The notes: generated by a model not told the origin, from the letters alone. Shown: positions 11,929 through 32,000, counted from the stretch's first letter. The stretch: 32,000 nt of DNA from Candidatus Saccharimonadota bacterium (GCA_027925225.1 AP027131.1:390001-422000); one strand, 5' to 3'. Numbers and translations are program-made.

Positions 11929-12687
11929 ATGAGTGAAGAAGACTATTTATTTTGATCAATAATTGTTGTAGCAATAATTGCTTTAATTGCAATAATAATT
12001 ATTCAATTAAAAGTTAGAAAATTAAGAAAAATTTTAAAAAAGAAAGAATCAAGTAATATCAAATTAATTTTAATAGGTGGCGGTTCTGGTTCTGGGAAAA
12101 GTTTTATCTCTAATAAATTAGCAGAAGAAATTAAAAAAAATAAAAGAAAAGTAACTATTATAAGAATGGATCACTATTATAAAAGTATTGAAAATTTTTC
12201 AAAAAATTTTGAAAAAATAAATTTTGATTCTCCAAAAGTCATTGATTGAAAAACATTAATAAAAGATATTGATTCTTTAAGAAGTGGAATTGCTATAAAT
12301 CAAAAAATCTATAATTTTGCAACAGGAGAATATTATAAAGATAAAAATATAAAAATTGAACCTGGAGATTTCATTATTTTAGAAGGTATTTTTGTCTTTT
12401 ACAACAAAGAAATAAATCTTTTAGCAAATGAAAAAATATTCATAGAAGCAAATGAAAAAACAAGATGAAGAAGAAGACTTGAAAGAGATAAAAAAGAGAG
12501 ATATACTAAAAAAAATGAAGAAGAATTAAAAAAAATATGAGAAAACAGAGTTTTACCAATGCATAAAAAATATATTGAAAAAACCAAAAAGCATGTAAAT
12601 GACATAATAGAAAACAATAATGATAAAAATCAAAAATATATTAATGAAAAAATAAATGAAGTTTATGAAAAAATTACAAAATTATAA
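11929..12687 (+). CDS. udk: Uridine kinase family protein with an extra N-terminal TM helix
   Basis: Read with TGA=Trp (252 aa). The N-terminus has WSIIVVAIIALIAIIIIQL. This is followed by P-loop GGGSGSGKS, MDHYYK, NFDSPKVIDW, FIILEGIF and RWRRRLERDKKERY, which are collinear with Udk motifs. Confidence 0.7.
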
Positions 12688-13932: not shown

Positions 13933-14592
13933 ATGACTAATAATCAATGGAATAATATAATAATAAAAATATTTAATGATAAAAAAAATTTACAAAATGA
14001 ATTTTTAAATTTTACAAAAATTAAAAAATATAATAAATATACAAAATTTATAGAAATTAAAATAGAAAAAGATTACTTAAGTCGAATTATTATTTCAAGA
14101 ATTGATGAATTTAAACTTTATTTAGAGAAAGAATTAAATGATACTGTTTTTTATATAAAAATAAATAATAGAAAATTTGAATTTTTTTCTTCTCTACAAA
14201 AAGATAAAATCTCTGATGTAAAAAAAGAAGATATTAAAAATATTCCAATTTCTTACAAAACTTCAGAAAGAATTATAAATGGAAATTTTTTCTTAAATGA
14301 AAAAATAAAAAAAGAAAATTTAAATAGAGTGGTTGATTTATTTTTTTATAATAAATTGTTTTATTCAACAAAAAAAATTACAGTGAATTATAAAATTTTA
14401 CATAATAAAAAAAATGTAAAATATAGTATTTATTTTTGTTGAACAATATTTATTCCTTTAGTTTTTTCTTTTAAAATTTTAAATAATAAAATTAAATATT
14501 CTAAAATAAAAAAAGAAATAAATGATCTAATAAATTTAAAATATATTCCACTAAATCAAGAAACAGAGAAATTTGTAAAACTTTACCTTTAA
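13933..14592 (+). CDS. Hypothetical protein (219 aa)
   Basis: ORF 13933..14442 continues through one TGA to TAA at 14590-14592. I recognise no family confidently. The N-terminal W..II.KI....L..EF..F...K pattern only faintly recalls DnaA-domain-I-like folds. Confidence 0.45.
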
Positions 14593-14703: not shown

Positions 14704-15279
14704 ATGAAATATGCTGTTATAAAAAATGGTTCTCAACAAATAAGGGTTCAAAGTGGAAAATCAATCTGAATTGATAAAATTGATACAAAGATTGGTGAAG
14801 TTTATAATTTTGAACATGTTATTGCATTAAATGATGGAGGAAAATTACATATTGGACACCCTAAATTAAATGCAAGCGTTAAAGGAATTGTTCAAAAACA
14901 TGGTAAAGGTCCTAAACTTATAATCTTTAGAACAAAAGCAAAATCAAATTGAAAAAGAAAACAAGGCCACCGTCAAGACTATACAAGAATTTTAATTACA
15001 GATATTATTTTAAATGATGAAAAAATTGATACAATAAAATCTTTAAATGTAGATCTTGAGGCAATTGATGGAATTGAAAAAGAAAAAATTTCAAAAAATA
15101 ATATCAATTCTGAAAAACAAAATAAACAAGAGATTTTAAAAAATAATATTTTTTCTGAAAAAGATGAAGAAGATGAAGATATTATAAAAAATATTATTAC
15201 TTCTAAAGAAGAAGATGAAGAAATAGAAGAATCATTAACAGTTGAAAATAAAGATAAAATTGAAATTGATGAGAAATAA
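14704..15279 (+). CDS. rplU: Ribosomal protein L21 with a ~90-aa acidic C-terminal extension
   Basis: MKYAVIKNGSQQIRVQ ... KGPKLIIFRTKAKSNWKRKQGHRQDYTRI is canonical L21 (two TGA=Trp codons). The frame then stays open for about 90 more residues rich in E/D/K before TAA at 15277-15279. This gene is absent from the ORF track because of the TGA codons. Confidence 0.9.
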
Positions 15280-15290
15280 TTTTATTAAAA

Positions 15291-15605
15291 ATGATAAATG
15301 CTAATTTTTTAAAAAAAAATAAATCAATAATAGAATTTAGTATAAGTGGTCATGCATTTTCTGTTTTAAATGAAAACGGAAATGACTTAGTGTGTGCTGC
15401 TGCTTCTGGAATTGTTTTTGGAATACTAAATTCATTAAATGATAAAACAAATGAAATTTTCGTAAAAAAAAATTTTATTTCAATAAAAACAAAAAACATA
15501 AATGATAAAAATAATCAACTAATTCTAAATGTTTTAGAAACTTCATTAAAAACTTTAGAAGAAAAAAATAAGAAAAATATTAAAATATTAGTTAAAAGAG
15601 GTTAA
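15291..15605 (+). CDS. prp: Ribosomal-processing cysteine protease Prp (YsxB/DUF464)
   Basis: SGHAF ... DLVCAAASG motifs (the catalytic His/Cys pair of Prp). It sits between rplU and rpmA. Confidence 0.85.
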
Positions 15606-15606
15606 A

Positions 15607-15882
15607 ATGAAATATTCTTTAGAATTGCAATTCTTTGCTCATAAAAAAGGTGGAGGTTCATCAAAAAATGGAAGAGATTCTCATTCAAAAAGATTGGGAG
15701 TTAAATTAACTGATGGACAATTTGCAAATGCTGGTTCAATAATTTTTAGACAAAGAGGAACAAAAATTCACCCAGGAATAAATGTAGGTTGCGGAAAAGA
15801 TTTTACACTTTATGCTTTAAAAGAAGGTTATGTTTCTTATACAAATAAAAATGGAAAAAAGATTGTTAATATAAAACAATAG
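15607..15882 (+). CDS. rpmA: Ribosomal protein L27 with an N-terminal Prp-cleaved propeptide
   Basis: [25 protein letters not shown] is the Firmicute-type L27 pro-sequence and cleavage motif, followed by the conserved L27 core. Confidence 0.95.
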
Positions 15883-15919: not shown

Positions 15920-17947
15920 ATGTCAAAAATTGAGAATAAAGAAGAGATACCTAACCAGGGAAAAAATAAAAACTTGCAAATAAAAACAATTGAAAAAATT
16001 GATTATAATGATTTGTACAAAGTTAAATTTAAAAAAATTGAAGCTTTTTTAAAAGAAAAAAAAATTATTATTCCCAAAGATATAGATGATAAAGATAAAT
16101 TAATTGATTTTATAAAAAAAGAAAAAATAAATCAAAAAGAATTAAATAATTTTTTAAACAGTTTATTTAAAAATAAAATTAAAAATAAAATTTTAATTCC
16201 TCTTCTTAAACCTTTTAAAAAAATAAAAAGAAAAGTAAAAAAATATTTTGAAAAGTTTCTTTTTTCTCTTCTTAAACCTTTTAAAAAAATAAAAAGAAAA
16301 GAAAAGAAAAAATCTAAAAAAAAAGAAAGTAAATTTCAGGAAAGTAATCAATCTTCAAAAAAATTTTTAGATAAAAAAAATAAAAAGAAGAAAAAAATTA
16401 ATTTCCCTAATTCCCTTGTAATAATTGTTTCTGTTCTTTTTATTTTTGTTATTATTACTTGAATTCCTCACGATCCTTATAATCCTGGGGTCGATTATCA
16501 AACAGGAGAGGATTTATATTGAGATGCAATAGTTTCAAGAAATAGTCAAGTAGCGACAACTGGAGTATTTGGTCTTTTTGATTCTTTTTATGCTATCCTT
16601 TTAGGTTTTTTTCAAGCCTTACCTCTTTTTTTATATTTATTTGCACTTGGTGCTTTAATTCAAATTATTCTAGAAACAGGTTCCTTTGAAAGAGGAATTG
16701 GTTCAACGCTTAAAAAACTAGAAAACAAAAAAATATATTCAGTTCCAATAATTTTCTTTATATTTTCATTGTTTGGAACAGCTTGAGGTATGCAAGAAGA
16801 ATCAATCGCATATTACTCTATAATAATCCCTTTTATGATTATGAGCGGATTTACTCCAATTACTGCATTAATGATTTTAATGTTAGCAAACACAACAGGT
16901 ATGATGGCTTCAATTACAAATCCATTTTCTACTGGTGTAGCTATTGATTCTCTTCCTTCTAATTGAAATGGTGAAATAACTTTGGGAAACGGAATTGCAA
17001 GTAGATTTGTTATTTGAATAATTTTAACAACCTCAGGTGCAATATTTGTTACATGGTTTACATTAAAACATTCAAAAAAAGAAGATCCAAAAAATTACAA
17101 AGATTTAAAAGATAAATACACAAATAAACTTAAAGAAAATGATGAAACAGAACAATTAAGAATGATTGAAGATGAATTTCAATTCAATACCATGAAAAAG
17201 AGAGATGAATTATCTTTAATTGCTTTTGGTATTACTATTGCACTTATTGTTATTGGTGTTTTTCCTTGGCAAACTTGATTTCCTAATTTTGGAGTAGACG
17301 CAAATGGGAATAATAATTTTGGTTTTATTGATCCTCATATTGGTAATTTCTTTGCGGCACCAGGTTTATGAGGATTTATTGATTTAACTGTTATTCTTTT
17401 TCTTGGAATAATTGTTCAAATTTTTATTTTTGGTCCAAGGAAAAAACCTTGATCAAAAATAATTATTAAAGGTGCCGAAGGGATGCTTAGTGTTTCAATA
17501 ATAATTGGTATTGCAAGGGCTGCATCAATTGTTTTAACATATTCTGGTATGTCTGCCGTGTTTGTTACTGGACTGTCTCACCTTCCTGGACAAAATACAG
17601 ATTATGGATTTTTAATGTTTATGTTTGTTACATCGATTATTATGGGAACCTTAATACCTTCTACCTCTGGGGCAGCAGGAATTTTATTTCCTCTTGTTGC
17701 TGATTTAATTACACAAGCAGGTCAAGTACCAACATCTGCTGATGTAAATTTAATGAGTTCATCAATTATTGTGTTTTCTATGGCTCTTGGACTAGTAAAT
17801 ATGTTTTCTCCAGCTCAAGCTGTTGTGCTTGCTTCTGTAGAAAAAACCGGAATAAGTTATGGTGAATATATTAAGTCAGTATGAAGATTTATTTTAATGC
17901 AATTCTTAATTGTTTTCATTTTCATAATACCAATTATTTCAATATAA
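15920..17947 (+). CDS. YfcC/DcuC-like (C4-dicarboxylate anaerobic carrier family) membrane transporter with a ~170-aa Lys-rich N-terminal extension
   Basis: One frame runs from ATG 15920 to TAA 17945-17947 with about 10 TGA=Trp codons (675 aa). The part from about 16400 onward is polytopic with YfcC-like segments (GSFERGIG, GMQEESIAYYSIIIPFM, ITNPFSTGVA, TSGAAGILFPL). No SD or usable promoter precedes 15920, so the start is uncertain. Confidence 0.75.
16200..16301 (+). repeat. 36-bp direct repeat, two copies 66 bp apart, inside the transporter N-terminal extension
   Basis: CTCTTCTTAAACCTTTTAAAAAAATAAAAAGAAAAG occurs at 16200-16235 and again at 16266-16301. It encodes LLKPFKKIKRK twice, spaced 22 aa apart. 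Confidence 0.9.
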
Positions 17948-18084
17948 AAAAATAATGTATAATTTAAATGTGAATAAAAAGAATTAAGAAATATCCATTT
18001 TAAACGTATTACAAAAAGTTTTATTATGTGTTTAATTTTGTTATCATTTTCTTAATTATTTAAAAAAAATGAGAGGTTTACCAA

Positions 18085-19137
18085 ATGGCAGGTAGAATTT
18101 TACTTAAAAAAGTAAGAATAGGTATTATTGGAGCTGGTGGTGGTGGCACAAATGCTGTTGCAAATAATGCTCATAAATTTGCTCCTTTTAATATTGATTT
18201 TTTGGCTATCAATACAGATGAACAAGCTTTACAAAAATCAGGGAAAAGTAACTATAAATATTTTGAAAGAAAATTAATTGGTAAAAAAATTACTAATGGT
18301 TTAGGAGCTGGTTCAAATCCTGAAATTGGTTGAAAAGCTGCAGCTGAAGAAAAAGAATGAATAAAGTCTTGATTAAGAGAAAAAAAATTAATTTTTATTG
18401 TTACTGGTCTTGGTGGAGGAACTGGTAGTGGTGCTGCTCCTTATGTTACTAAACTTGCAAAAGAATTAGGAATTACTACAATATGTATTTCAACTATTCC
18501 TTTTGCTTTCGAAGGAAAAGAAAGAACAGAAAATGCTCTTAGTGGTTTAAAAACTATAGAAAAATATGCTGATCTTTCTATAGTTATAAATAATAATGAT
18601 TTATTTAAACAACATTCAGAAAATACTGTAGAATCAACATTTCTTACTGCTGACAAATTACTGGGTGATGCAATAATTACAATTTTAAATTTAATGTTAG
18701 AAGATTCTTACATTAATGTTGACTTTGCAGATATTGAAAAAGTTATTAAAGGTGCAAAAGGTGGATTTATATCAATAACTTTTGCAAAAGATGTAAATGA
18801 CAAAGGTTTAAAGGAAAATTCAAGTAAATTTGATAAAGCAATAAAACAATTACTTGATCATACAATTGTGCCAACAGAAATGAAAACAGCAAAAAGAGCA
18901 GTTTTAAGTATTTCTGGACCAAACAAAATTTTAAAAATGGATTATGTAAGATACATAATTAATTCTATTTTAGAAAATGTAAATGCAAATTTAGATATTA
19001 TTTTTGGTCTTACAAATAATAATGAGTTAGGAAACAATTTAAAGATATCATTAATTCTTACAGGAATGAAAGAATTGATTGTAACAGACAATATTGTAGG
19101 AATTGAGGAGAAGTTTTTGCATAAAAAAACAAAGTAA
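18085..19137 (+). CDS. ftsZ: Cell-division GTPase FtsZ (short, 350 aa)
   Basis: ORFs 18085..18333 and 18694..19137 are in the same frame and joined via TGA. Motifs: GGGGTNAV, tubulin signature GLGAGSNPEIG, GLGGGTGSGAAP, and T7 loop NVDFADIEKV. A GAGAGG Shine-Dalgarno sequence lies upstream. Confidence 0.93.
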
Positions 19138-19149
19138 ATTGAATAAAAT

Positions 19150-20736
19150 ATGAACACACACATGAATAAAAATTTTAATAATTTAACAAATTTTAATGAT
19201 TTAGATAAAAGTACACAAATAGCAATCTATGTTTTAGTTTTTCTTTTAGCAATTTTTTTATTATTACTATTGTTTGTCATTATTTCTAAAATAAGAAAAA
19301 ATAAAAAAACAAAAGAATATCAAGAAGTAAACCAAGAAATACAACAAAAAACTGTTGAAAGCGAAAATTTTACTGTAGGATCAAACGTTAGTGAAAATGC
19401 CGAAAAAAATAGACGCAGAGAAGAAGAAATTGCCAAGGAAAAACTAATACCAACAGCAGATGCATTGGGAATTGAAAATCCAATGCAATATTCTTTTTCA
19501 AGATTAGAACAATTAATAATGATGGCTGAACTTAAAGGAAAAAGAAAACCTCAAGAACAAAGCCCTTCAGAAACAAAGGAAGTTTTACAAGAACAAAAAC
19601 CAATTCCTGAACCTGAGCAAAAAATTCAACAAGAACAAAAACCAATTCCTGAACCTGAGCAAAAAAAAGAACAAGAGCAACCTTTAAAAACAAAAAAACA
19701 AGATTCAACACATCACCAAGTTTTTGATGACAAAGAATTGCAAAAAATATTAGACATACAATTAAAAAATCAAGTATTAATAACTAATTATGAAAAAAGT
19801 ATAAAAGGAATTTTAAAAGAAATAAATGATAGCACTAATAAAAAAGAAGAAGGAGAAGGAGAAGAAAAAGAATCTCCAGAACGTAACGAACGCTTCTCTG
19901 AATTTGCTAAATTATTTATAGAAGACAGAAAAATCAAAGAAAACAATAATAGTAATCACAATAATCATGGAATAAATGAAAAAGAAAACAAATCTCTTGA
20001 AAAATTAATTAAAAAAAATGAAATGCTTGAGGAAGAAATTTCAAAAATAAAAAGAGAAAGTTTTGATAATGAAAAAAGAAGATTTCAAGATGACTTTGAA
20101 AGAAAACAAGCGCAATTACAAAATGAAAGAAAAATGTTAGAAAATGAACGTATTAATATACAACAAAGACGTTTTGCTGATGAAATAGAAAGTAAAATAA
20201 TGAATAAAATTGCTTTTCAAACTTCCGAAATAAGACAAATGGCAAATATGATGAAAAGTAATAATAATAAAAATGAATACACAGATAATTCAAATGCAAA
20301 TGTAAATAATGAAAACATTTTAAAAACAATAGAGATAGAACTTGACAAATTATCAAGAAAAATGGATTATTATGATAAAAAAAGTGAAATAGAAAATAAT
20401 TATGCAATAGAAGGAAAATTTGAAAAAAAATCAAGTAAAAATTTAAATGAAAATTCAAGAACAAATTCAAAACAAAAAGAAAATCATTTAGTTTCAAAAA
20501 AATCTAATTTTGATGATAGTGAATTTAATTATGATCTTGATAATAAAAATTTTTACGAAAACATAGACTCTGAAAATTCAAATAATATTAATAAAAAAAC
20601 AACTCAAAAAAATAACAAATCACATCAAAAAAAGGATAATAATGATGAATTAAATCAAGAAAATGATAAATTACTTGAAACGATTGAAATAGAATTAGAT
20701 TTATTAAATAAAATTCTGAAAGAAAATAAAAAATAG
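19150..20736 (+). CDS. Hypothetical membrane-anchored coiled-coil, low-complexity protein (528 aa) immediately downstream of ftsZ
   Basis: Uninterrupted ORF. It has one TM helix near the N-terminus (IAIYVLVFLLAIFLLLLLFVIIS), a P/E/Q-rich repeat, long K/E/R/Q coiled-coil stretches, and a duplicated TIEIELD.L motif. Confidence 0.6.
   Translation: MNTHMNKNFNNLTNFNDLDKSTQIAIYVLVFLLAIFLLLLLFVIISKIRKNKKTKEYQEVNQEIQQKTVESENFTVGSNVSENAEKNRRREEEIAKEKLIPTADALGIENPMQYSFSRLEQLIMMAELKGKRKPQEQSPSETKEVLQEQKPIPEPEQKIQQEQKPIPEPEQKKEQEQPLKTKKQDSTHHQVFDDKELQKILDIQLKNQVLITNYEKSIKGILKEINDSTNKKEEGEGEEKESPERNERFSEFAKLFIEDRKIKENNNSNHNNHGINEKENKSLEKLIKKNEMLEEEISKIKRESFDNEKRRFQDDFERKQAQLQNERKMLENERINIQQRRFADEIESKIMNKIAFQTSEIRQMANMMKSNNNKNEYTDNSNANVNNENILKTIEIELDKLSRKMDYYDKKSEIENNYAIEGKFEKKSSKNLNENSRTNSKQKENHLVSKKSNFDDSEFNYDLDNKNFYENIDSENSNNINKKTTQKNNKSHQKKDNNDELNQENDKLLETIEIELDLLNKILKENKK
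19588..19666 (+). repeat. Two copies of a 37-bp unit with a 42-bp period inside the CDS
   Basis: CAAGAACAAAAACCAATTCCTGAACCTGAGCAAAAAA occurs at 19588-19624 and 19630-19666. It encodes QEQKPIPEPEQK twice. Confidence 0.9.
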
Positions 20737-20745
20737 TATTTGTGT

Positions 20746-21168
20746 ATGTCGATAGAAAAAATTATTCAACAAATTAAAGAGTTGAATAATAAAATAGAGA
20801 AAAAAATAAATAACAAAAAAGAAGAAGAAGAATATTTACTCAATTCATTAAAAGAGAGAAATATCTTTTTAAATGATTTAAGAGAAAAAAATAAAATACT
20901 TATTTCTAAAATACAGAGCAATAAATATGAACTAACTAATCTAAAAAATCAATTAAAATACAAAAATAAAATTGAAGAAAAGAAAATTTTTAAGTATTAT
21001 AAAAAATTAAATGAAATAATAGAAAATATAAAACAAACAAAAGAAAAGGAAAAAAAATTTGAAAGAGAATTTCATATTTTAGAACAATTATCTAGCATAA
21101 AAAAAGAAGAAGATTATAAGAAAATAAGCAATGATTTAGATGAAATGCTTGGAAAAATTGGTTTATAA
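20746..21168 (+). CDS. Hypothetical small coiled-coil protein (~140 aa)
   Basis: ORF from ATG 20746 (the ORF track uses TTG 20740). It is entirely K/E/N-rich with heptad-like character and has no TM segment. It is packed tightly between the 528-aa protein (9-nt gap) and nadE (2-nt gap). Confidence 0.5.
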   Translation: MSIEKIIQQIKELNNKIEKKINNKKEEEEYLLNSLKERNIFLNDLREKNKILISKIQSNKYELTNLKNQLKYKNKIEEKKIFKYYKKLNEIIENIKQTKEKEKKFEREFHILEQLSSIKKEEDYKKISNDLDEMLGKIGL

Positions 21169-21170
21169 AA

Positions 21171-21881
21171 ATGAATAATGAAATAAATAAGATAATTGTT
21201 TGAATAAAAGAGGAAGTAAAAAAAGCAAATGCAAAGGGTGTTATTGTGGCAACATCAGGAGGCATAGATTCAACGGTTTTACTTTCACTTGCAAAAAAAG
21301 CTTTTCCCAATAATACTTTTGCTCTTTGAATAGATATTTATTCTTCCTTAAATTTTAAAAAATTAGCAAGAGAACAAATTAAAAAAAATAATGTCAATTT
21401 TAAGGAGATTAATTTAGGAAAGTTTTTTGATAATTTTTTAAAAGAAATAAAAATAGATGAATTAGATAATACTTCTAAAGCAAATTTAAAGGCCAGAATA
21501 AGAATGATTACAATTTATACTTATGCTAGTAAATTAAATTATTTAGTGCTTGGAAGCACAAATGCAATTGAATATTATTTAGGATATTTTACAAAATGAG
21601 GGGATGGATGCGCTGATCTTTATCCTCTTTTAAAATATAAAAAATCAGAAGTAAGAGAGTTAGCAAAAGAATTAAACATTGAAGAAAAAATAATAAATTT
21701 ATCCCCTTCAGCAGATTTATATCCAAATCAAACAGATGAAAAAGAACTTGGTTTTTCTTACAAAGAAGTAGAAGATTTTTTATCTGGGAAAGAAATTGAA
21801 GAAAAAATTGAAGAAAAAATAATAAAAATGCATAAAAATACTGAACATAAAAGAAAAAATTTAATTAATTATTTTAAATAA
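21171..21881 (+). CDS. nadE: NH3-dependent NAD+ synthetase
   Basis: Read with TGA=Trp (236 aa). Motifs: PP-loop ATSGGIDS, KANLKARIRM, LVLGSTNAIEYYLGYFTKWGDGCADLYPL and SADLYPNQTDEKELG. It is absent from the ORF track because of TGA codons. Confidence 0.9.
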
Positions 21882-25535: not shown

Positions 25536-25606
25536 AAAAATAAGAATAAAAATAAATAAAAGAATAATTTAAACACATGTATTGATTATTCTTTTATTTA
25601 TTTTTA

Positions 25607-26837
25607 ATGACAATTATTTTAATTTATGGACTTTTCTTAAATTCAATAATATTTTTAATATTTTTCTTATTATTTTTTTTATATTTATTATTTATAAATC
25701 TTAAATATTTAATTTTATTGTTTTTTATTTTTCCAATTATTATTAATTTAAATTCTGTTATAAATCAAAATATAAATAATAATTATTATCATCAAGGAGT
25801 TATAACAAAAACATATAATAACTCTTTTATCGTAAAAGAAAACAATAATTTCTATTATATTTATTCAACAGAAAATATTTATGTTGGGGATATTATTTTT
25901 TTTCAAGGAAATTATGTAAAAATAAATGAAATAGATGATTTTTCTTTGTTTTTAATAAGCAATAAGGTTTTATACACCGGTAAAGAAATAAGTAATATAA
26001 AAATATTAAAAGAAAAAAAATCAATAAGAAATAACAAAATAAAAAACTTAAAAGAAAGCTCTTCAAAATATGCAGACTATACCCTTTTGCTTATTTTTAA
26101 AAAAGAAAATGAAAATAATAAATATCTTTTAAATAATTTTAATAAATTAGGAATAGAGCATTTATTTGTAATTTCTGGATTTCATATAGGAATTATTTAT
26201 TTATTTACTTTTTATATTTCTAAACCATTTATTAAAAAGAAAATTATTTTACAAATAATCGCTTCTACAATTTCTTTTTATTTTCTTTATCTTACATTTT
26301 TCCCAGTATCGGGAATTAGAGCATGAATTTATAGAAATATAGAATCATCAAAAAATAATGAGTAAAAATAATTCTCTTACTTTTACAGCATTAATAATGC
26401 TTTTATTAAATCCATTTTTTGCTTTTTCAATTTCCTTAATACTTTCATTTTCAATAACTTTTTTAATAATTAATATTAATCAAACAATATGAAGTAAAAA
26501 GAAAAAAACAATTTATACTTCTTTGTTTTCTTTTTTATTAGCTTCTTCTTTAATTACAATTTGAAATCAAACAATTAATCTTTTTGCACCATTTTTAACA
26601 ATAATTTGTTCACCATTTATTATTATTCTTTATACATTTATATTGATTTTTTTGCCATTTAAATTTTTGTGAATTTATTTAAACTTTTTCTTTTTGTTAT
26701 TTGATTTATTTTTTTATTTATTATCCTTTATTTATTTACCACTTTTAATTCCAATTTTTCCACTTATATTGCATTTTATTATTTTTATATTACTTTTTTA
26801 TTTTTTAATTAAAATAATAAAAAAGAAAAAAAATTAA
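25607..26837 (+). pseudogene. comEC: ComEC/Rec2-family DNA-internalisation membrane protein, interrupted by a +1 frame change (two ORFs: 25607..26365 and 26358..26837)
   Basis: The N-terminal part has TM helices, an OB-like segment (YVGDIIFFQGNYVKI) and the ComEC core LGIEHLFVISGFHIG ... FPVSGIRA. The frame stops at TAA 26363-26365. The +1 frame continues with the expected downstream ComEC segment LTFTALIMLLLNPFFAFSISLILSF. The junction lies at an A6 run (26350-26355). Confidence 0.7.
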
Positions 26838-27512: not shown

Positions 27513-29438
27513 ATGAAAAAAAATTTACTTGTAATTATTTTTTTACCAATAATATTTTTTTTACAAAATTTTATTTTTTTAAATAAAAATGTAGAATGTA
27601 ATTATTTATCAAAAAATAATTCTATTTTAGTTACAGAAGAACAAAATCCTTATATAGAGAGCGGACCAATAATTTGGTATCCAAATGAAGAAGAAGATAG
27701 CATAAATTTTGAACTTTCAATACATGACAATGATAGTCATGATTTTTTTACAAAAGTAAAAAATGAAGATGGTATTAGCATGTATATAATTGATTACTAC
27801 GTAGATGAAATAACTGCAGTTTCTGCTTATTCTACTTTTGAATGTATTAATATGCCAGTGAATCCAGTTGATAATTATAAATATATTTTTGAGATAGATA
27901 TGGGTGATTTTGCATTAGAAAACTATGATAGTCCTTATACAAATTGAGAATATGATAGTACATATTCTTTAAATTATATAAAATCTAATATTCTTGCAGT
28001 AGATAGTTATTACAATGTACCTACTGAAGAACTTTATTTTTCAGATTTTGGGGTAATTAATAGAGATTTCCAAACAACAATTTTTAATCCTTATATTGTA
28101 GGAAAAAGTGGATTTGAAATTTTAAATACGAATGTAAATTCAGTTCAATTTCAAATTAAAGCAATAAATGATTATGAAGAAAATTATGATTTTGAAAACA
28201 GCACTTTTAATATAAAATTAAATAATATTGATAGTGGCGAAGAAATAAATACAACCGCCATTTATGTAGGAACTGGAGAAGAAAAAAATACATATATTTA
28301 TGAAATAAATGGTTTAACTCCTAATACAAATTATGAAATTCTTTCTTTAGATAATACAAATCTTTCTGCACTTAGTCCATATTATGAGAATGACTCTTCA
28401 ATTTCAATTAGTGATTCTTTTGAAAATGGAGGTTTAAATTCAAATGGTTCTTTTTATACAATTAATGAAAATAATCCTTACATTGAAGAAAGAGGATTTG
28501 ATATTTTAACTACAACAGAAAATTCAGTAGAATTTCAAATAGCTGTAATTGAAAATAAAGATATTAGTTTTGATCCAAAAAATTCATTAAATGTAACAAT
28601 AAATGATTCTCTAGGGAATTCAATAAATAAAACAGCAAATTATATCGAAGAAGAAAGCTCTGGAAATAATTATGTTTATGAAATAACAGGCCTTGAAGAA
28701 GGAACAAGTTATGAAATTATTTCTTTAAATAATACTGGACTTGCTGTTGGAAACAATTTAAATGAAATTGATAATGAAATTTTAATAAAAGATGATTTGG
28801 GAGCAGAAGGAAATTTTATAACATTGAATAATAATCCATATATTGAGACCGGTACTAATAGTGGCTTTGAAATTATAAGTTATACAGAAACAACTGTAAC
28901 TTATACAATTACTGTTTATAATAAAAAACCAAATGAAAATATTGATGTTACATTAACATTAAATGAAAATAATTTAATATCCCCTAAAATTAACAATAAT
29001 TTAACAGAAACAAAAACATACTCATCACATCTTATAGATTCTGATGAGGAAAATAATAAATATACATATGAAGTTACAAATTTAAATGATAATACTGATT
29101 ATACTTTTTATTCTTTAGATAACAGTGGACTTGCAATTGGAAGTAGTTCTGAAGAAATTGATGATCAAATAATACTTACTGATGAATTATTCGTTAATCC
29201 AAATTTATTATTTTTTAAAACATATGAAAGCAAAATTCCAAATTATGTTTGAATAATTTTAATAATTTTTCTAATTATAATTATTTTTATAGGTATTTTA
29301 TTACTTCTAAGAACAATAAATAAAAATAAAGAAAAAAAAATAGATAGAGAAATTAATAATTTAGCAGGAGAAAGAATTAACAAAAAAGTAATTAAAAATA
29401 AAAAAAATAAAAAAAATAAAAAAAATTATTTTGGGTAG
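27513..29438 (+). CDS. Modular repeat surface protein A (641 aa): signal peptide, N-terminal domain, three ~120-130-aa repeat modules, C-terminal TM anchor and Lys-rich tail
   Basis: ORFs 27513..27947 and 28797..29252 are in one frame, and the frame stays open between them and after them via TGA=Trp, ending at TAG 29436-29438. Modules start at NPYI motifs (28086, 28473, 28833). The TM anchor is WIILIIFLIIIIFIGILLLL. Confidence 0.8.
28801..29378 (+). repeat. 578-nt block, near-identical copy of 31423..32000 (3' parts of genes A and B)
   Basis: In my hand alignment at a constant offset of 2622 nt I counted 21 mismatches and no indels over 578 nt. Twelve of those fall in the last 500 nt. The block covers module 3, the stalk, the TM anchor and the start of the tail. 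Confidence 0.9.
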
Positions 29439-29828: not shown

Positions 29829-32000
29829 TTGAAGAGAATTTTTTTTATTTTAATAATTTTACCTAATATTTTTTTTACACAAATATTTTTTTCGTTAAAT
29901 AATAATAAATTAATGACAAATGAATATTCTTATATAGAAAGTGGAATACCAATAAATTGATATCCAAATCAAAAAGAAAATAGTATAAATTTTGGACTTA
30001 TAATACATGAAAATGAAAATCATGATTTTTATGAAAATTTAATAAGTAATGATAGTTTTATTAAAATTGGAATAGGCGATAGACCAAATGGTTCAAATAA
30101 TATTGGAGTTGCTGATTATGAATTTCCATGTATCAATATGCCAACAGAAGAAGAATTAGATTTAAATTCTATTTATGAATATATTTTTGAAATAAATATA
30201 GAATTTTTCAAAGATGACCAATATTGATTATATAAAATTGAAGACAATATTCTTTCAATAGATAATTATTATGATGAACCACTTAATAATATTAGATTTT
30301 ATGATGATTTAAAAATAACTAATAATGATTTTAAACAAAATACTTTTAATCCTTATATTGTTGGAAAAAATGGATTTAAAATTATAAAAACAACAGAAAA
30401 TTCAGTTCAATTTCAAATTAAAGCAATAAATGATTATGAAGAAAGTTATGATTTCGAAAACAGTTCTTTTAACGTGACTTTAAATAATATTGATAATGAT
30501 TTTATAATTAATACTAAAGCTAATTATATAGGTATTGGAGAAGAAGATAATACATATGTTTATGAAATAAATGGTTTAACTTCTGATACAAATTATGAAA
30601 TTCTTTCTTTAGATAACACAAATCTCTCTGTTCTTAATCCTTGCTATGAAAATGATTCTTCAATTTCAATTAATGATACATATGAAAACGGTGGTTTAAA
30701 TTCAGATGGTCATTTTAAAACAATTCGAGAAGAGAAATCTTACATAGAAGAAAAGGGATTTGAAATTTTAGATACAACATCAAATTCTGTAAAATTTCAA
30801 ATAACTGTAATAGAGGATGAAGAAAATAGTTTTGATCCTTCTATTTCTTTAAATGTAACAATAAATGATTCCTTAGGAAATTCAATAAATAAAACAGCAA
30901 ATTATATCGAAGAAGAAAGCTCTGGAAATAATTATGTTTATGAAATAACAGGCCTTGAAGAAGGAACAAATTACGAAATTATTTCTCTAAATGATACAGG
31001 ACTTGCTGTTGGAAGCGGTTTAAATGAAATTGATAATGAAATTTTAATAAGCGATGATTTGGGCGCTGATGGAAGTTTTAATACTTTAAATGATGATCCT
31101 TACATTGAAGAAAAAGGATTTGAAATTTTAGATACAACATCAAATTCTGTAAAATTTCAAATAACTGTAATAGAGGATGAAGAAAATAGTTTTGATCCTT
31201 CTATTTCTTTAAATGTAACAATAAATGATTCCTTAGGAAATTCAATAAATAAAACAGCAAATTATATCGAAGAAGAAAGCTCTGGAAATAATTATGTTTA
31301 TGAAATAACAGACCTTGAAGAGGGAACAAGTTATGAAATTATTTCTCTAAATGATACAGGACTTGCTGTTGGAAGCGGTTTAAATGAAATTGATAATGAA
31401 ATTTTAATAAATGATGATCTGGAAGCAGAAGGAAATTTTGTAACATCGAATACTAACCCGTATATTGAAACTGGTGCTAATAGTGGCTTTGAAATTATAA
31501 ATTATACAGAAACAACTGTAACTTATACAATTAATGTTTATAATAAAAAACCAAATGAAAATATTGATGTTACATTAACATTAAATGAAAATAATTTAGC
31601 ATCCCCTAAAATTAACAATAATTTAACAGAAACAAAAACATATTCATCACATCTTGTAGATTCTGATGAGGAAAATAATAAATATACATATAAAGTTACA
31701 AATTTAAATGATAATACTGATTATACTTTTTATTCTTTAGATAACAGCGGACTTGCAATTGGAAGTAGTTCTGAAGAAATTGATGATCAAATAATACTTA
31801 CTGATGAATTATTCGTTAATCCAAATTTATTATTTTTTAAAACATATGAAAGCAAAATTCCAAATTATGTTTGAATAATTTTAATAATTTTTCTAATTAT
31901 AATTATTTTTATAGGTATTTTATTAGTTCTAAAAATAATAAACAAAAATAAAGAAAAAAAAATAGATAGAGAAATTAATAATTTAGCAGGAGAAAGAATT
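29829..32000 (+). CDS. Modular repeat surface protein B (paralogue of A with four repeat modules); 3' end runs off the window
   Basis: TTG start at 29829. The product LKRIFFILIILPNIFF aligns with A's MKKNLLVIIFLPIIFF, and the frame is closed upstream at 29787-29789. The frame stays open to 32000 through TGA codons, including the one at 31872-31874 before the TM anchor. Modules start at 30348, 30735, 31095 and 31455. Confidence 0.8.
30735..31454 (+). repeat. Tandem in-frame duplication, 2 x 360 bp (one 120-aa module each)
   Basis: Copies at 30735-31094 and 31095-31454. A 195-nt stretch (30756-30950 versus 31116-31310) is identical, and a further ~76-nt identical stretch follows after a few substitutions. 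Confidence 0.92.

What the first reader, a model, noticed from the sequence alone, without database searches (positions are those of the whole stretch)
18085..21168. ftsZ outside a dcw/ftsA context, followed by two uncharacterised coiled-coil proteins: a possible non-canonical divisome module
In mollicutes, ftsZ normally follows mraZ-rsmH-ftsA. Here it follows a transporter gene after a 137-nt gap, with no ftsA.

It is tightly followed (gaps of 12, 9 and 2 nt) by three genes:
- a 528-aa protein with one N-terminal TM helix and a long coiled-coil or low-complexity body
- a ~140-aa soluble coiled-coil protein
- nadE

The topology and size of the 528-aa protein resemble EzrA-like FtsZ regulators, but I see no sequence similarity. 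It also carries a duplicated TIEIELD.L helix motif (20326-20346 and 20680-20700).

FtsZ itself is short at 350 aa. It has almost no linker but ends with EEKFLHKKTK, which resembles the partner-binding C-terminal peptide (P.FLR+). A membrane tether is therefore expected, and the downstream TM protein is the obvious candidate.
Basis: partly seen in the sequence, partly recalled or inferred. Interest (0 to 1): 0.65.

Follow-up and report, generated by a model that had tools for sequence, protein, structure and literature searches.

The report
FtsZ operon with orphan membrane partner
In a small group of uncultured crustacean-gut mycoplasma relatives, the cell-division gene ftsZ sits outside its usual cluster and is always followed by an uncharacterised membrane-anchored protein, which is a reasonable but untested candidate for holding FtsZ at the membrane.

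Summary
Read with genetic code 4, the window encodes a genuine but divergent FtsZ (350 aa, about 10-residue linker, conserved IEEKF/YL tail) that is not next to mraZ, rsmH or ftsA. It is followed by a 528-aa bitopic membrane protein (X), a 140-aa all-helical protein (Y) and nadE.

The lineage is related to Candidatus Hepatoplasma. In the ten loci examined, ftsZ-X is conserved in every locus that reaches past ftsZ. The whole ftsZ-X-Y-nadE block is conserved in all eight that reach that far, while both flanks vary.

X is a real orphan family. It has an N-terminal TM helix, a conserved NPxQYSxxRLEQLI motif, variable disordered and coiled-coil spacers, and two copies of a C-terminal LIKTIExEL helix. 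It has no detectable relation to EzrA, ZipA, SepF, ZapA, DivIVA or FtsA.

Y is conserved in position only. Its four subgroups share no detectable similarity.

Nothing here tests an FtsZ-X interaction. The absence of ftsA or sepF elsewhere in the genome could not be checked. One Hepatoplasma annotation ("ftsZ_1") suggests a second ftsZ. One relative's X lacks the TM helix. Mycoplasmas with FtsZ but no FtsA are already known.

Verdict: a plausible, moderately interesting lead for a lineage-specific FtsZ membrane partner. It is not yet evidence of a new divisome.

The parts
15920..17947 (+). DcuC/YfcC-family transporter with a Lys-rich N-terminal extension of about 160 aa. Context only: it is a lineage-specific insertion between rpmA and ftsZ.
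   Evidence: Pfam PF03606, 4.2e-49. Present between rpmA and ftsZ in W, L007, L008, L010, L011 and L012; absent there in L001, L003, L005 and L009.
18071..18076 (+). Shine-Dalgarno-like GAGAGG, 8 nt upstream of the ftsZ ATG, inside the 137-nt intergenic region.
   Evidence: Read directly from the sequence. X, Y and nadE have no comparable element.
18085..19137 (+). ftsZ, 350 aa with code 4. Divergent, with a very short linker.
   Evidence: Pfam Tubulin 3.3e-37 plus FtsZ_C 6.2e-9. TIGR00065 scores 246.8 bits, below the 295.2 cutoff. Only 8 relatives at 62-91% identity, then a drop to about 37%.
19102..19119 (+). FtsZ C-terminal motif IEEKFL (residues 340-345). A conserved, proline-less variant of the partner-binding C-terminal peptide.
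   Evidence: E341 and E342 are invariant, with F/Y plus L/F/I at the next positions in most members; L001 differs, with IEEMHSF. The canonical consensus D/E-I/V-P-x-F/Y-L-R/K is taken from bioRxiv 10.1101/2023.08.29.555414.
19150..20736 (+). X: 528-aa bitopic membrane protein (N-out, C-in), member of an orphan family.
   Evidence: No Pfam, NCBIfam or PDB match. Homologues lie immediately downstream of ftsZ in all 9 related loci. BLASTP links them through the N-terminal region and the C-terminal motif. Annotated as a hypothetical protein in Ca. H. scabrum (BDV03545.1).
19219..19287 (+). X transmembrane helix (residues 24-46), followed by the basic stretch KIRKNKKTK.
   Evidence: AF2 models a helix over residues 20-68. 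The same arrangement is seen in 8 of the 9 homologues; L009 is the exception.
19435..19539 (+). X conserved membrane-proximal motif, LIxxAxxLGIxNPxQYSxxRLEQLIMMxEMKG (residues 96-130).
   Evidence: A, I, P, S, R, L, Q, L and I are invariant in 10 sequences. It lies 64-122 residues after the TM helix.
19587..19680 (+). 42-nt tandem repeat (2.2 copies) encoding the Pro/Gln/Glu/Lys-rich unit QEQKPIPEPEQK, inside a linker predicted to be disordered.
   Evidence: TRF score 160, 92% matches. AF2 pLDDT is below 50 over residues 126-192.
19978..20271 (+). X long uninterrupted helix (residues 277-374), probably coiled coil.
   Evidence: AF2 pLDDT about 85-94 over this stretch.
20317..20364 (+). X C-terminal helix motif, copy 1: ILKTIEIELDKLSRKM (residues 390-405).
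20671..20718 (+). X C-terminal helix motif, copy 2: LLETIEIELDLLNKIL (residues 508-523).
   Evidence: Two copies in every full-length homologue. The stricter regex hit only X in 112,719 aa of six-frame ORFs from 10 loci, twice per protein except in L001, whose first copy (SQIEAEM) needs the looser pattern.
20746..21168 (+). Y: 140-aa soluble, highly charged, all-helical protein (an alternative TTG start at 20740 gives 142 aa).
   Evidence: AF2 single-sequence pLDDT 91, with one helix over residues 3-116 and a short helix over 121-137. No Pfam or NCBIfam hit. Only L007 has a detectable homologue (58% identity). Proteins at the same position in other lineages are not detectably similar.
21171..21881 (+). 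nadE (NAD synthetase), the last gene of the conserved co-directional block.
   Evidence: Pfam NAD_synthase 1.4e-60. It follows Y in every relative whose contig reaches that far.

Best explanation
ftsZ-X-Y(-nadE) is a co-directional gene block, probably co-transcribed, that is specific to Hepatoplasma-related mollicutes. In this lineage ftsZ has left the mraZ-rsmH(-ftsA) cluster.

FtsZ looks like an active GTPase. It has almost no flexible linker, but keeps a conserved acidic-then-hydrophobic C-terminal peptide (D/G-I-E-E-K-F/Y-L). That conservation implies a conserved binding partner.

X is inserted in the membrane by one N-terminal helix, with its whole body in the cytoplasm. It offers a conserved membrane-proximal motif, long disordered and coiled-coil spacers, and two conserved C-terminal amphipathic helices.

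The most likely role for X is a membrane-proximal FtsZ partner, either anchor or regulator. It would then work like ZipA or EzrA without being related to them, and its long spacers would supply the reach that the linker-less FtsZ lacks. Y would be a fast-evolving coiled-coil accessory, for example a bundler or spacer like ZapB.

Shown here: gene identities, topology, motifs, synteny, and lack of homology to known partners. Inferred: co-transcription, any FtsZ-X or X-Y contact, and which motif binds what.
For: - ftsZ identity and intact catalytic motifs.
- Conserved tail motif across about 6 lineages whose FtsZ is only 60-91% identical.
- The tail is acidic with only 2-3 hydrophobic residues, and no conserved N-terminal extension exists. 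A built-in membrane-targeting helix is therefore unlikely.
- X lies immediately downstream of ftsZ on the same strand in all 9 related loci. X-Y-nadE follows in all 7 of those that reach that far.
- The flanks differ. The DcuC gene is inserted upstream in 6 of 10 loci, and there are four different gene sets downstream of nadE.
- X is only 21-26% identical overall between lineages, yet keeps the TM helix, the NPxQYSxxRLEQLI motif and two LIKTIExEL helices.
- The basic stretch follows the TM helix in every homologue that has the helix.
- Gaps in the window are 12, 9 and 2 nt, with no terminator-like site inside the block.
- No FtsA, SepF, MraZ or RsmH domain within 32 kb here or within +/-10 kb in relatives.
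- A gene table for five Hepatoplasmataceae genome bins (MAGs) lists only ftsZ and mraZ under cell division (PMC9636832 supplement).
- Unknown membrane proteins are required alongside FtsZ in minimal mycoplasma cells (bioRxiv 10.1101/2020.10.07.326892).
Against: - No interaction was tested, and no multimer prediction was possible.
- Synteny is weak evidence here. The whole alaS-ruvX-udk-greA-rplU-prp-rpmA-ftsZ region is collinear in this narrow clade, and nadE, which is unrelated to division, is conserved in the block just as well.
- X has no globular domain of the kind that binds the FtsZ tail in FtsA, ZipA or SepF (AF2 pTM 0.21).
- The L009 homologue of X has no TM helix.
- Y is not a conserved family.
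- Intergenic gaps in relatives reach 139 nt, so co-transcription is not assured.
- FtsA in mycoplasmas is often unannotated, and genome-wide absence was not checked.
- H. crinochetorum Ps labels this gene ftsZ_1, implying a second copy, possibly in a canonical context.
Confidence: 0.4

Rival explanations
1. The adjacency has no functional meaning. X and Y are lineage-specific, fast-evolving, low-complexity membrane and coiled-coil proteins with an unrelated role, or only a weakly constrained one. They sit next to ftsZ only because gene order is still conserved in this narrow clade.
For: - Collinearity extends about 8 kb upstream, from alaS to rpmA, in all relatives.
- nadE is conserved in the block equally well.
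- X is 21-26% and Y 17-21% identical between lineages, against 60-70% for FtsZ.
- Y subgroups are not detectably homologous.
- X is mostly disordered or a single long helix.
- The exhaustive HMMER search found no relatives beyond the nearest one.
Against: - The ftsZ-X-Y-nadE block stays intact while both flanks were rearranged.
- X keeps three short motifs and its topology under clear purifying selection, despite overall divergence.
- A 528-codon open frame in 21% GC DNA, conserved in 10 loci, is not a spurious ORF.
Confidence: 0.3
2. FtsZ is anchored by a conventional partner encoded elsewhere: a divergent, unannotated FtsA next to mraZ-rsmH, or a SepF. Alternatively a second FtsZ paralogue does the canonical job. 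X would then be at most a modulator, such as an EzrA-like negative regulator or spacer, and not the tether.
For: - In most mycoplasmas ftsA is present but unannotated between mraW and ftsZ (bioRxiv 10.1101/2023.08.29.555414).
- mraZ is present in all five Hepatoplasmataceae MAGs.
- The gene is named ftsZ_1 in H. crinochetorum Ps, and two ftsZ copies are listed in 2 of 5 MAGs.
- The retained tail resembles the proline-less C-terminal peptide groups of mycoplasmas that still have FtsA.
- X in L009 lacks a TM helix.
Against: - No FtsA or SepF domain lies near ftsZ in any of 10 loci.
- The MAG table lists no ftsA.
- Ten of 113 mycoplasma species really do have FtsZ without FtsA.
- The two-copy MAGs also duplicate several other single-copy genes, so they may be mixed bins.
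Confidence: 0.2
3. FtsZ binds the membrane directly through its own terminus, as shown for the C-terminal amphipathic helix of M. genitalium FtsZ, and needs no protein tether.
For: There is precedent in mycoplasmas (bioRxiv 10.1101/2023.08.29.555414). The short tail ends with F-L followed by basic residues in the window protein (FLHKKTK).
Against: - The conserved part of the tail is acidic (IEEK) with only two hydrophobic residues.
- The basic end is not conserved (…YFAN, …FLTRPE, …YFSQGSSN).
- N-terminal extensions are short and not conserved.
- Hydrophobic-moment values do not stand out from ordinary C-terminal peptides.
Confidence: 0.07

Closest known systems
ZipA (gammaproteobacterial FtsZ membrane anchor)
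   Same: Bitopic N-out/C-in topology, a basic juxtamembrane stretch, and a long flexible charged or Pro/Gln-rich linker. In the window this is the QEQKPIPEPEQK repeat; other lineages have P/T/E- or G/P/Q-rich stretches. It is also encoded apart from ftsA.
   Different: X has no ZipA_C globular FtsZ-binding domain and no sequence or fold match. Instead it has coiled-coil segments and short conserved helices.
EzrA (Firmicutes FtsZ regulator)
   Same: A single N-terminal TM helix, a cytoplasmic and largely helical body of similar size (about 500-560 aa), and a short conserved C-terminal element.
   Different: No PF06160 match. No spectrin-like repeat arch was predicted or found by Foldseek. Length varies from 352 to 676 aa, with disordered low-complexity inserts.
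SepF / FtsA (conventional FtsZ tethers of Firmicutes and mollicutes)
   Same: The inferred function is the same: linking the FtsZ C-terminal peptide to the membrane. sepF also lies just downstream of ftsZ in the mycoplasmas that have it.
   Different: Neither X nor Y has a SepF or actin-like domain. Y is a single long helix, not an alpha/beta fold. X is anchored by a TM helix, not an amphipathic helix.
ZapB / ZapA-type coiled-coil Z-ring accessories
   Same: Y is small, soluble, highly charged and predicted to be one long helix, like ZapB (this comparison rests on my own knowledge).
   Different: No sequence or Foldseek match. Y is not even conserved as a family within the clade.
Mycoplasma FtsZ groups of Dutta et al. 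(bioRxiv 10.1101/2023.08.29.555414)
   Same: A wall-less bacterium with a reduced division gene set. The FtsZ tail keeps the charge pattern and aromatic residue but lacks the conserved proline, as in their group 1B. The FtsZ-only situation resembles their group 2 (10 of 113 species).
   Different: Here ftsZ is not next to mraZ-mraW at all. It follows rplU-prp-rpmA and is coupled to a conserved TM protein. Hepatoplasma-type genomes are not mentioned in that paper's main text.

Membership tests
FtsZ | Tubulin/FtsZ GTPase domain plus FtsZ C-terminal domain | tested here: met
   PF00091 3.3e-37 and PF12327 6.2e-9.
FtsZ | GTP-binding motif GGGTG(S/T)G and T7 loop NxDxxD | tested here: met
   GGGTGSG and NVDFAD are present and invariant across the clade.
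FtsZ | Score above the NCBIfam equivalog cutoff (TIGR00065) | tested here: not met
   246.8 bits against a cutoff of 295.2. This is a divergent member. The nearest FtsZ outside the clade is about 37% identical.
FtsZ | Canonical C-terminal peptide D/E-I/V-P-x-F/Y-L-R/K | tested here: not met
   The tail is G/D-I-E-E-K-F/Y-L, with no proline and one extra residue. It is nevertheless conserved in the clade.
FtsZ | Location in a dcw cluster (mraZ-rsmH-ftsA-ftsZ) | tested here: not met
   It is preceded by rpmA or a DcuC-family gene in all 10 loci.
EzrA | Sequence match to the EzrA family (PF06160) | tested here: not met
   No hit for X or any of 7 homologues at E<=1.
EzrA | N-terminal TM helix with a cytoplasmic helical body | tested here: met
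   TM at residues 24-46 followed by a basic stretch. The AF2 model is largely helical.
EzrA | Arch of spectrin-like three-helix repeats | tested here: inconclusive
   The AF2 model has low confidence (pLDDT 57, pTM 0.21, 2-sequence alignment). It shows single long helices and disorder, not repeats. Foldseek against the PDB found nothing.
ZipA | C-terminal globular FtsZ-binding domain (ZipA_C) | tested here: not met
   No Pfam or PDB match, and no globular domain in the model.
ZipA | N-terminal TM helix, then a charged region, then a Pro/Gln-rich linker | tested here: met
   TM helix, KIRKNKKTK, then the QEQKPIPEPEQK repeat in a disordered stretch.
SepF | SepF domain (PF04472), an alpha/beta fold with an N-terminal amphipathic helix | tested here: not met
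   No hit for X or Y. Y is predicted to be all-helical.
FtsA | Actin-like ATPase fold (FtsA/SHS2 domains) encoded next to ftsZ | tested here: not met
   No such domain in X, Y, the window ORFs scanned, or genes within +/-10 kb of ftsZ in the relatives with gene calls. The rest of the genome could not be searched.
ZapA / ZapB / DivIVA / GpsB | Family domain match or structural match | tested here: not met
   No Pfam or NCBIfam hit for Y or for three positional counterparts. The best Foldseek E-value against the PDB was 2.2.
Self-anchoring FtsZ (M. genitalium type) | Terminal amphipathic, membrane-binding helix | tested here: inconclusive
   Hydrophobic-moment values are unremarkable. The conserved tail is acidic, and the terminal basic residues are not conserved. 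Membrane binding itself cannot be tested with these tools.
FtsZ membrane tether (functional class) | Physical binding to FtsZ and recruitment of it to the membrane | not testable with these tools
   No multimer prediction or experiment was available.

The most novel reading that the evidence does not exclude
X founds a new family of bitopic FtsZ membrane anchors that replaced FtsA and SepF in Hepatoplasma-related mollicutes. FtsZ has shed its own flexible linker, and the anchor supplies the reach through its disordered and coiled-coil spacers. The conserved IEEKF/YL tail of FtsZ docks onto one of X's short conserved helices rather than onto a globular domain. This would be a minimal two-protein Z-ring attachment system outside the dcw cluster.
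Probability: 0.22. Interest if true: 0.65.

Novelty: new variant of a known kind. Interest (0 to 1): 0.4.

Why it matters
How FtsZ is attached to the membrane, and what it does, in wall-less bacteria that lack FtsA is unresolved. A conserved, unrelated membrane protein encoded with a linker-less FtsZ would be a concrete candidate. It could be tested in vitro or in E. coli or JCVI-syn3 surrogates, and would add an independently evolved tether to the ZipA, SepF and FtsA set.

The value is limited for three reasons. The organisms are uncultured gut symbionts. The family is confined to one small clade. The present evidence is synteny plus protein architecture only.

Tried and rejected
1. Homology of X or Y to known FtsZ partners. 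Pfam, NCBIfam, PDB-sequence profile search and Foldseek against the PDB all found nothing. A weak FtsL_broad hit (16.5 bits against a cutoff of 42.45) covers only the TM helix and the helix after it, and was dismissed.

2. Wider distribution of X.
   - The single-sequence search found only the nearest relative, because low-complexity words saturated the candidate list.
   - The exhaustive HMMER search with a 2-sequence profile found only that relative plus a spurious TolC-like repeat protein. It did not recover even the Hepatoplasma X proteins, so its sensitivity is poor.
   - A 10-sequence profile of the conserved motif found nothing in the protein database or in the JGI metagenome contigs.

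3. More FtsZ relatives in JGI metagenomes. All hits were 40% identical or less, so the clade is absent there.

4. The idea that X's membrane-proximal motif is a HeH/Rho_N-like DNA-binding motif. hhalign against the clade's own HeH motifs gave no support (probability about 1%), and Pfam gave no hit. Rejected as untested resemblance.

5. Homology among the Y proteins. BLASTP and hhalign were negative between the four subgroups.

6. The nearest short FtsZ outside the clade (P0011) as a possible second paralogue. It lies in a walled bacterium's dcw cluster.

7. Promoter and terminator scans were uninformative in 21% GC DNA.

8. Finding the window's own contig.

9. Literature and supplements for ftsA or ftsZ in Hepatoplasma genome papers. 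Nothing was found beyond the MAG table.

10. Genome-wide search for ftsA, sepF, mraZ or a second ftsZ.


Full report
**What is there.** The window has about 21% GC and uses genetic code 4. With table 11, ftsZ and several neighbouring genes fall apart at TGA codons. With table 4 the region reads as follows:
- rplU, 14704-15279
- prp, 15291-15605
- rpmA, 15607-15882
- a 675-aa DcuC/YfcC-family transporter, 15920-17947
- a 137-nt gap
- ftsZ, 18085-19137 (350 aa)
- a 12-nt gap, then X, 19150-20736 (528 aa)
- a 9-nt gap, then Y, 20746-21168 (140 aa; 142 aa if the TTG at 20740 is used)
- a 2-nt gap, then nadE, 21171-21881
- convergent plsY

Pfam confirms the Tubulin/FtsZ GTPase domain (3.3e-37), FtsZ_C (6.2e-9), DcuC (4.2e-49) and NAD_synthase (1.4e-60). 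It finds nothing significant for X or Y. No ftsA, sepF, mraZ or rsmH domain was found in any window ORF scanned.

An exact repeated 7-mer appears in only 0.4% of composition-preserving shuffles. The two copies share only 32 of 54 nucleotides. The match is therefore maintained at the protein level.

**Whose genome.** The FtsZ has only eight close relatives among 5.8 billion proteins, at 62-91% identity. Identity then drops to about 37%. A scan of species-representative genomes places the nearest named relatives in Candidatus Hepatoplasma scabrum and Ca. H. crinochetorum, at 63% identity. These belong to Hepatoplasmataceae, gut and hepatopancreas symbionts of isopods and other crustaceans, and the sister family of Metamycoplasmataceae (PMC10928387). 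The clade is absent from the JGI metagenome contigs.

**Conservation of the module.** Nine related loci were read. In all nine, ftsZ is followed on the same strand by a homologue of X. In all seven whose contig extends far enough, a 140-264-aa ORF with no Pfam match and then nadE follow.

The flanks are not fixed:
- The DcuC-family gene lies between rpmA and ftsZ in six of the ten loci (window included) and is absent there in four. The ancestral upstream neighbour is therefore rpmA, not a transporter.
- Downstream of nadE there are four different gene sets: plsY/dinB, rpsT/DUF2779, rpmF/nusB and dinB/holA.

The block has thus survived rearrangement on both sides. However, the region upstream (alaS-ruvX-udk-greA-...-rpmA) is also collinear throughout the clade. 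nadE, which has no link to division, is conserved in the block just as well. Synteny alone is therefore modest evidence. Gaps in relatives range from an overlap to 139 nt.

**FtsZ.** The catalytic motifs (GGGTGSG, NVDFAD) are invariant. The protein scores below NCBI's FtsZ equivalog cutoff (246.8 against 295.2 bits), so it is a divergent FtsZ. Only 21 residues follow the FtsZ_C domain.

Within that tail, I/V/L-E-E-K-F/Y-L/F/I is conserved, with E341 and E342 invariant. The residues after it are not conserved. The canonical peptide is D/E-I/V-P-x-F/Y-L-R/K (bioRxiv 10.1101/2023.08.29.555414). Compared with that, this tail lacks the proline and has one extra residue, much like that paper's proline-less groups.

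The tail is acidic with only two hydrophobic positions, and the N-terminal extension is short and not conserved. A built-in membrane-targeting helix of the M. genitalium kind therefore seems unlikely, although the hydrophobic-moment calculation was not discriminating. A conserved tail implies a conserved partner.

**Protein X.** X is annotated as a hypothetical protein in Hepatoplasma (BDV03545.1). It matches nothing in Pfam, NCBIfam, PDB sequences or PDB folds. Homologues are only 21-26% identical overall between lineages, against 60-70% for FtsZ. Even so, BLASTP links them through two regions, and they share a fixed architecture:
- an N-terminal TM helix followed by a strongly basic stretch, which puts the body in the cytoplasm
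- 64-122 residues further on, an invariant-rich motif LIxKAKxLGIENPEQYSxxRLEQLIMxxEMKG
- spacers of very variable length, giving totals of 352-676 aa
- two copies of an acidic amphipathic helix, (L/I)(L/I)x(T/S)(I/V)(E/Q)xE(I/L/M)xx(L/I), the last copy at the very C-terminus

A stricter form of that last pattern hit only X in 112,719 residues of six-frame ORFs from the ten loci. It hit twice per protein except in L001, whose first copy needs the looser pattern.

AlphaFold2 could use only a 2-sequence alignment (pLDDT 57, pTM 0.21). It shows the TM helix, disordered stretches at 126-192 and 415-495, one confident long helix at 277-374, and helices over both C-terminal motifs. It shows no globular domain. 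The first disordered stretch contains a 42-nt tandem repeat encoding QEQKPIPEPEQK.

In architecture X resembles ZipA (TM helix, charged region, Pro/Gln-rich linker) and EzrA (TM helix plus a helical body). It fails the defining sequence and domain tests for both. One partial homologue (L009) begins without any TM helix, and no upstream frame restores one. This could be a real loss or an assembly problem, and it counts against a universal anchoring role.

**Protein Y.** The window's Y is predicted with high confidence (pLDDT 91) as a single helix over residues 3-116, plus a short C-terminal helix. It has no family or fold match.

Its only detectable homologue is in the nearest relative, at 58% identity. 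The proteins occupying the same position in the other lineages fall into three further subgroups. BLASTP and profile-profile comparison show no similarity between any of the four.

Y is therefore conserved in position and general character (charged, helical) but not as a sequence family. Most Y proteins end in an acidic amphipathic helix (DLDEMLGKIGL, LDALELEMNLINNLLFKK, DLEEISRLILK), but the Hepatoplasma ones do not.

**What could not be settled.**
- Genome-wide absence of ftsA or sepF was not tested.
- Literature gives only indirect hints. A gene table for five Hepatoplasmataceae MAGs lists ftsZ and mraZ but no ftsA under cell division (PMC9636832 supplement). Mycoplasma FtsA is frequently unannotated.
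- That table lists two ftsZ copies in two MAGs. Those bins also duplicate other single-copy genes, so they may be mixed.
- The H. crinochetorum Ps annotation calls this gene ftsZ_1. A second ftsZ-like gene, possibly beside mraZ, is therefore a live possibility.
- No multimer prediction or interaction test was available.

**Interpretation.** The best-supported reading (confidence about 0.4) is a lineage-specific FtsZ operon. In it a bitopic, largely unstructured or coiled-coil membrane protein serves as the membrane-proximal partner of a linker-less FtsZ, as anchor or regulator. It would work like ZipA or EzrA without belonging to either family. A rapidly evolving coiled-coil accessory sits downstream.

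The rivals are:
- adjacency without function (about 0.3)
- a conventional FtsA or SepF, or a second FtsZ, encoded elsewhere, with X at most a modulator (about 0.2)
- self-anchoring FtsZ (below 0.1)

**Novelty and interest.** FtsZ without FtsA is already documented in 10 of 113 mycoplasma species. Non-canonical FtsZ tails and alternative anchoring modes are also described there (bioRxiv 10.1101/2023.08.29.555414). Unknown membrane proteins are known to be needed with FtsZ in minimal mycoplasma cells (bioRxiv 10.1101/2020.10.07.326892).

What is new here is the relocation of ftsZ next to the rplU operon and its strict coupling to an orphan TM protein family with three conserved short motifs. If X proves to be the tether, it would be a new, independently evolved variant of a known kind of system. 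The reasons are that the second protein is not a conserved family, the EzrA likeness is only topological, and the key premises (no FtsA or SepF, an FtsZ-X contact) remain untested.

Noticed in passing
window 25577-26837: A comEC-like competence gene is split into two overlapping ORFs (25577-26365 and 26358-26837) at an A-run. The nearest relative (L007 10885-12150) has one intact 421-aa gene. This is a frameshift, a pseudogene or a sequencing error.
   Followed up: partly
window 15920-16400: The DcuC/YfcC-family transporter carries an N-terminal extension of about 160 aa that is extremely Lys-rich and contains a duplicated LLKPFKKIKRK motif. In Rimicaris Hepatoplasmataceae MAGs, YfcC is grouped with the arginine deiminase pathway (PMC9636832 supplement).
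   Followed up: no
window 11929-12687; L003 5887-6273, L001 6567-6923, L005 6258-6746, L010 4361-4756: The first of two uridine kinase genes begins with a TM helix. In several relatives a separate small protein sits at that position between ruvX and udk. It consists of a TM helix, an acidic linker and a C-terminal HeH motif. The sigma factor of these relatives also starts with a HeH motif.
   Followed up: partly
window 27513-29438 and 29829-32000: Two paralogous large surface-type proteins. Each has an N-terminal signal or anchor, repeated modules (weak fn3-like hits), a C-terminal TM helix and near-identical cytoplasmic tails. They probably correspond to the repetitive beta-sandwich adhesin-like ORFs described for Hepatoplasmataceae (PMC10928387).
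   Followed up: no
L009 11081-11778: The X homologue in this relative starts without any TM helix. Its FtsZ has a longer tail (…EEKYIFGETKESKVFDS). The contig ends soon after, so an assembly artefact cannot be excluded.
   Followed up: partly
Ca. H. crinochetorum Ps, CRX36852.1 (locus L012 9920-10978): The FtsZ orthologue is annotated ftsZ_1, which implies a second ftsZ-like gene elsewhere in that 614-kb genome. Two of five Rimicaris Hepatoplasmataceae MAGs also list two ftsZ copies.
   Followed up: partly
window 18071-18076: Only ftsZ has a Shine-Dalgarno-like GAGAGG. X, Y and nadE have none. This is consistent with, but does not prove, coupled translation within one transcript.
   Followed up: no
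window 13933-14592: A conserved 216-229-aa protein with no Pfam match lies between greA and rplU in the window and in every relative whose locus covers that interval except L010. Its function is unknown.
   Followed up: no
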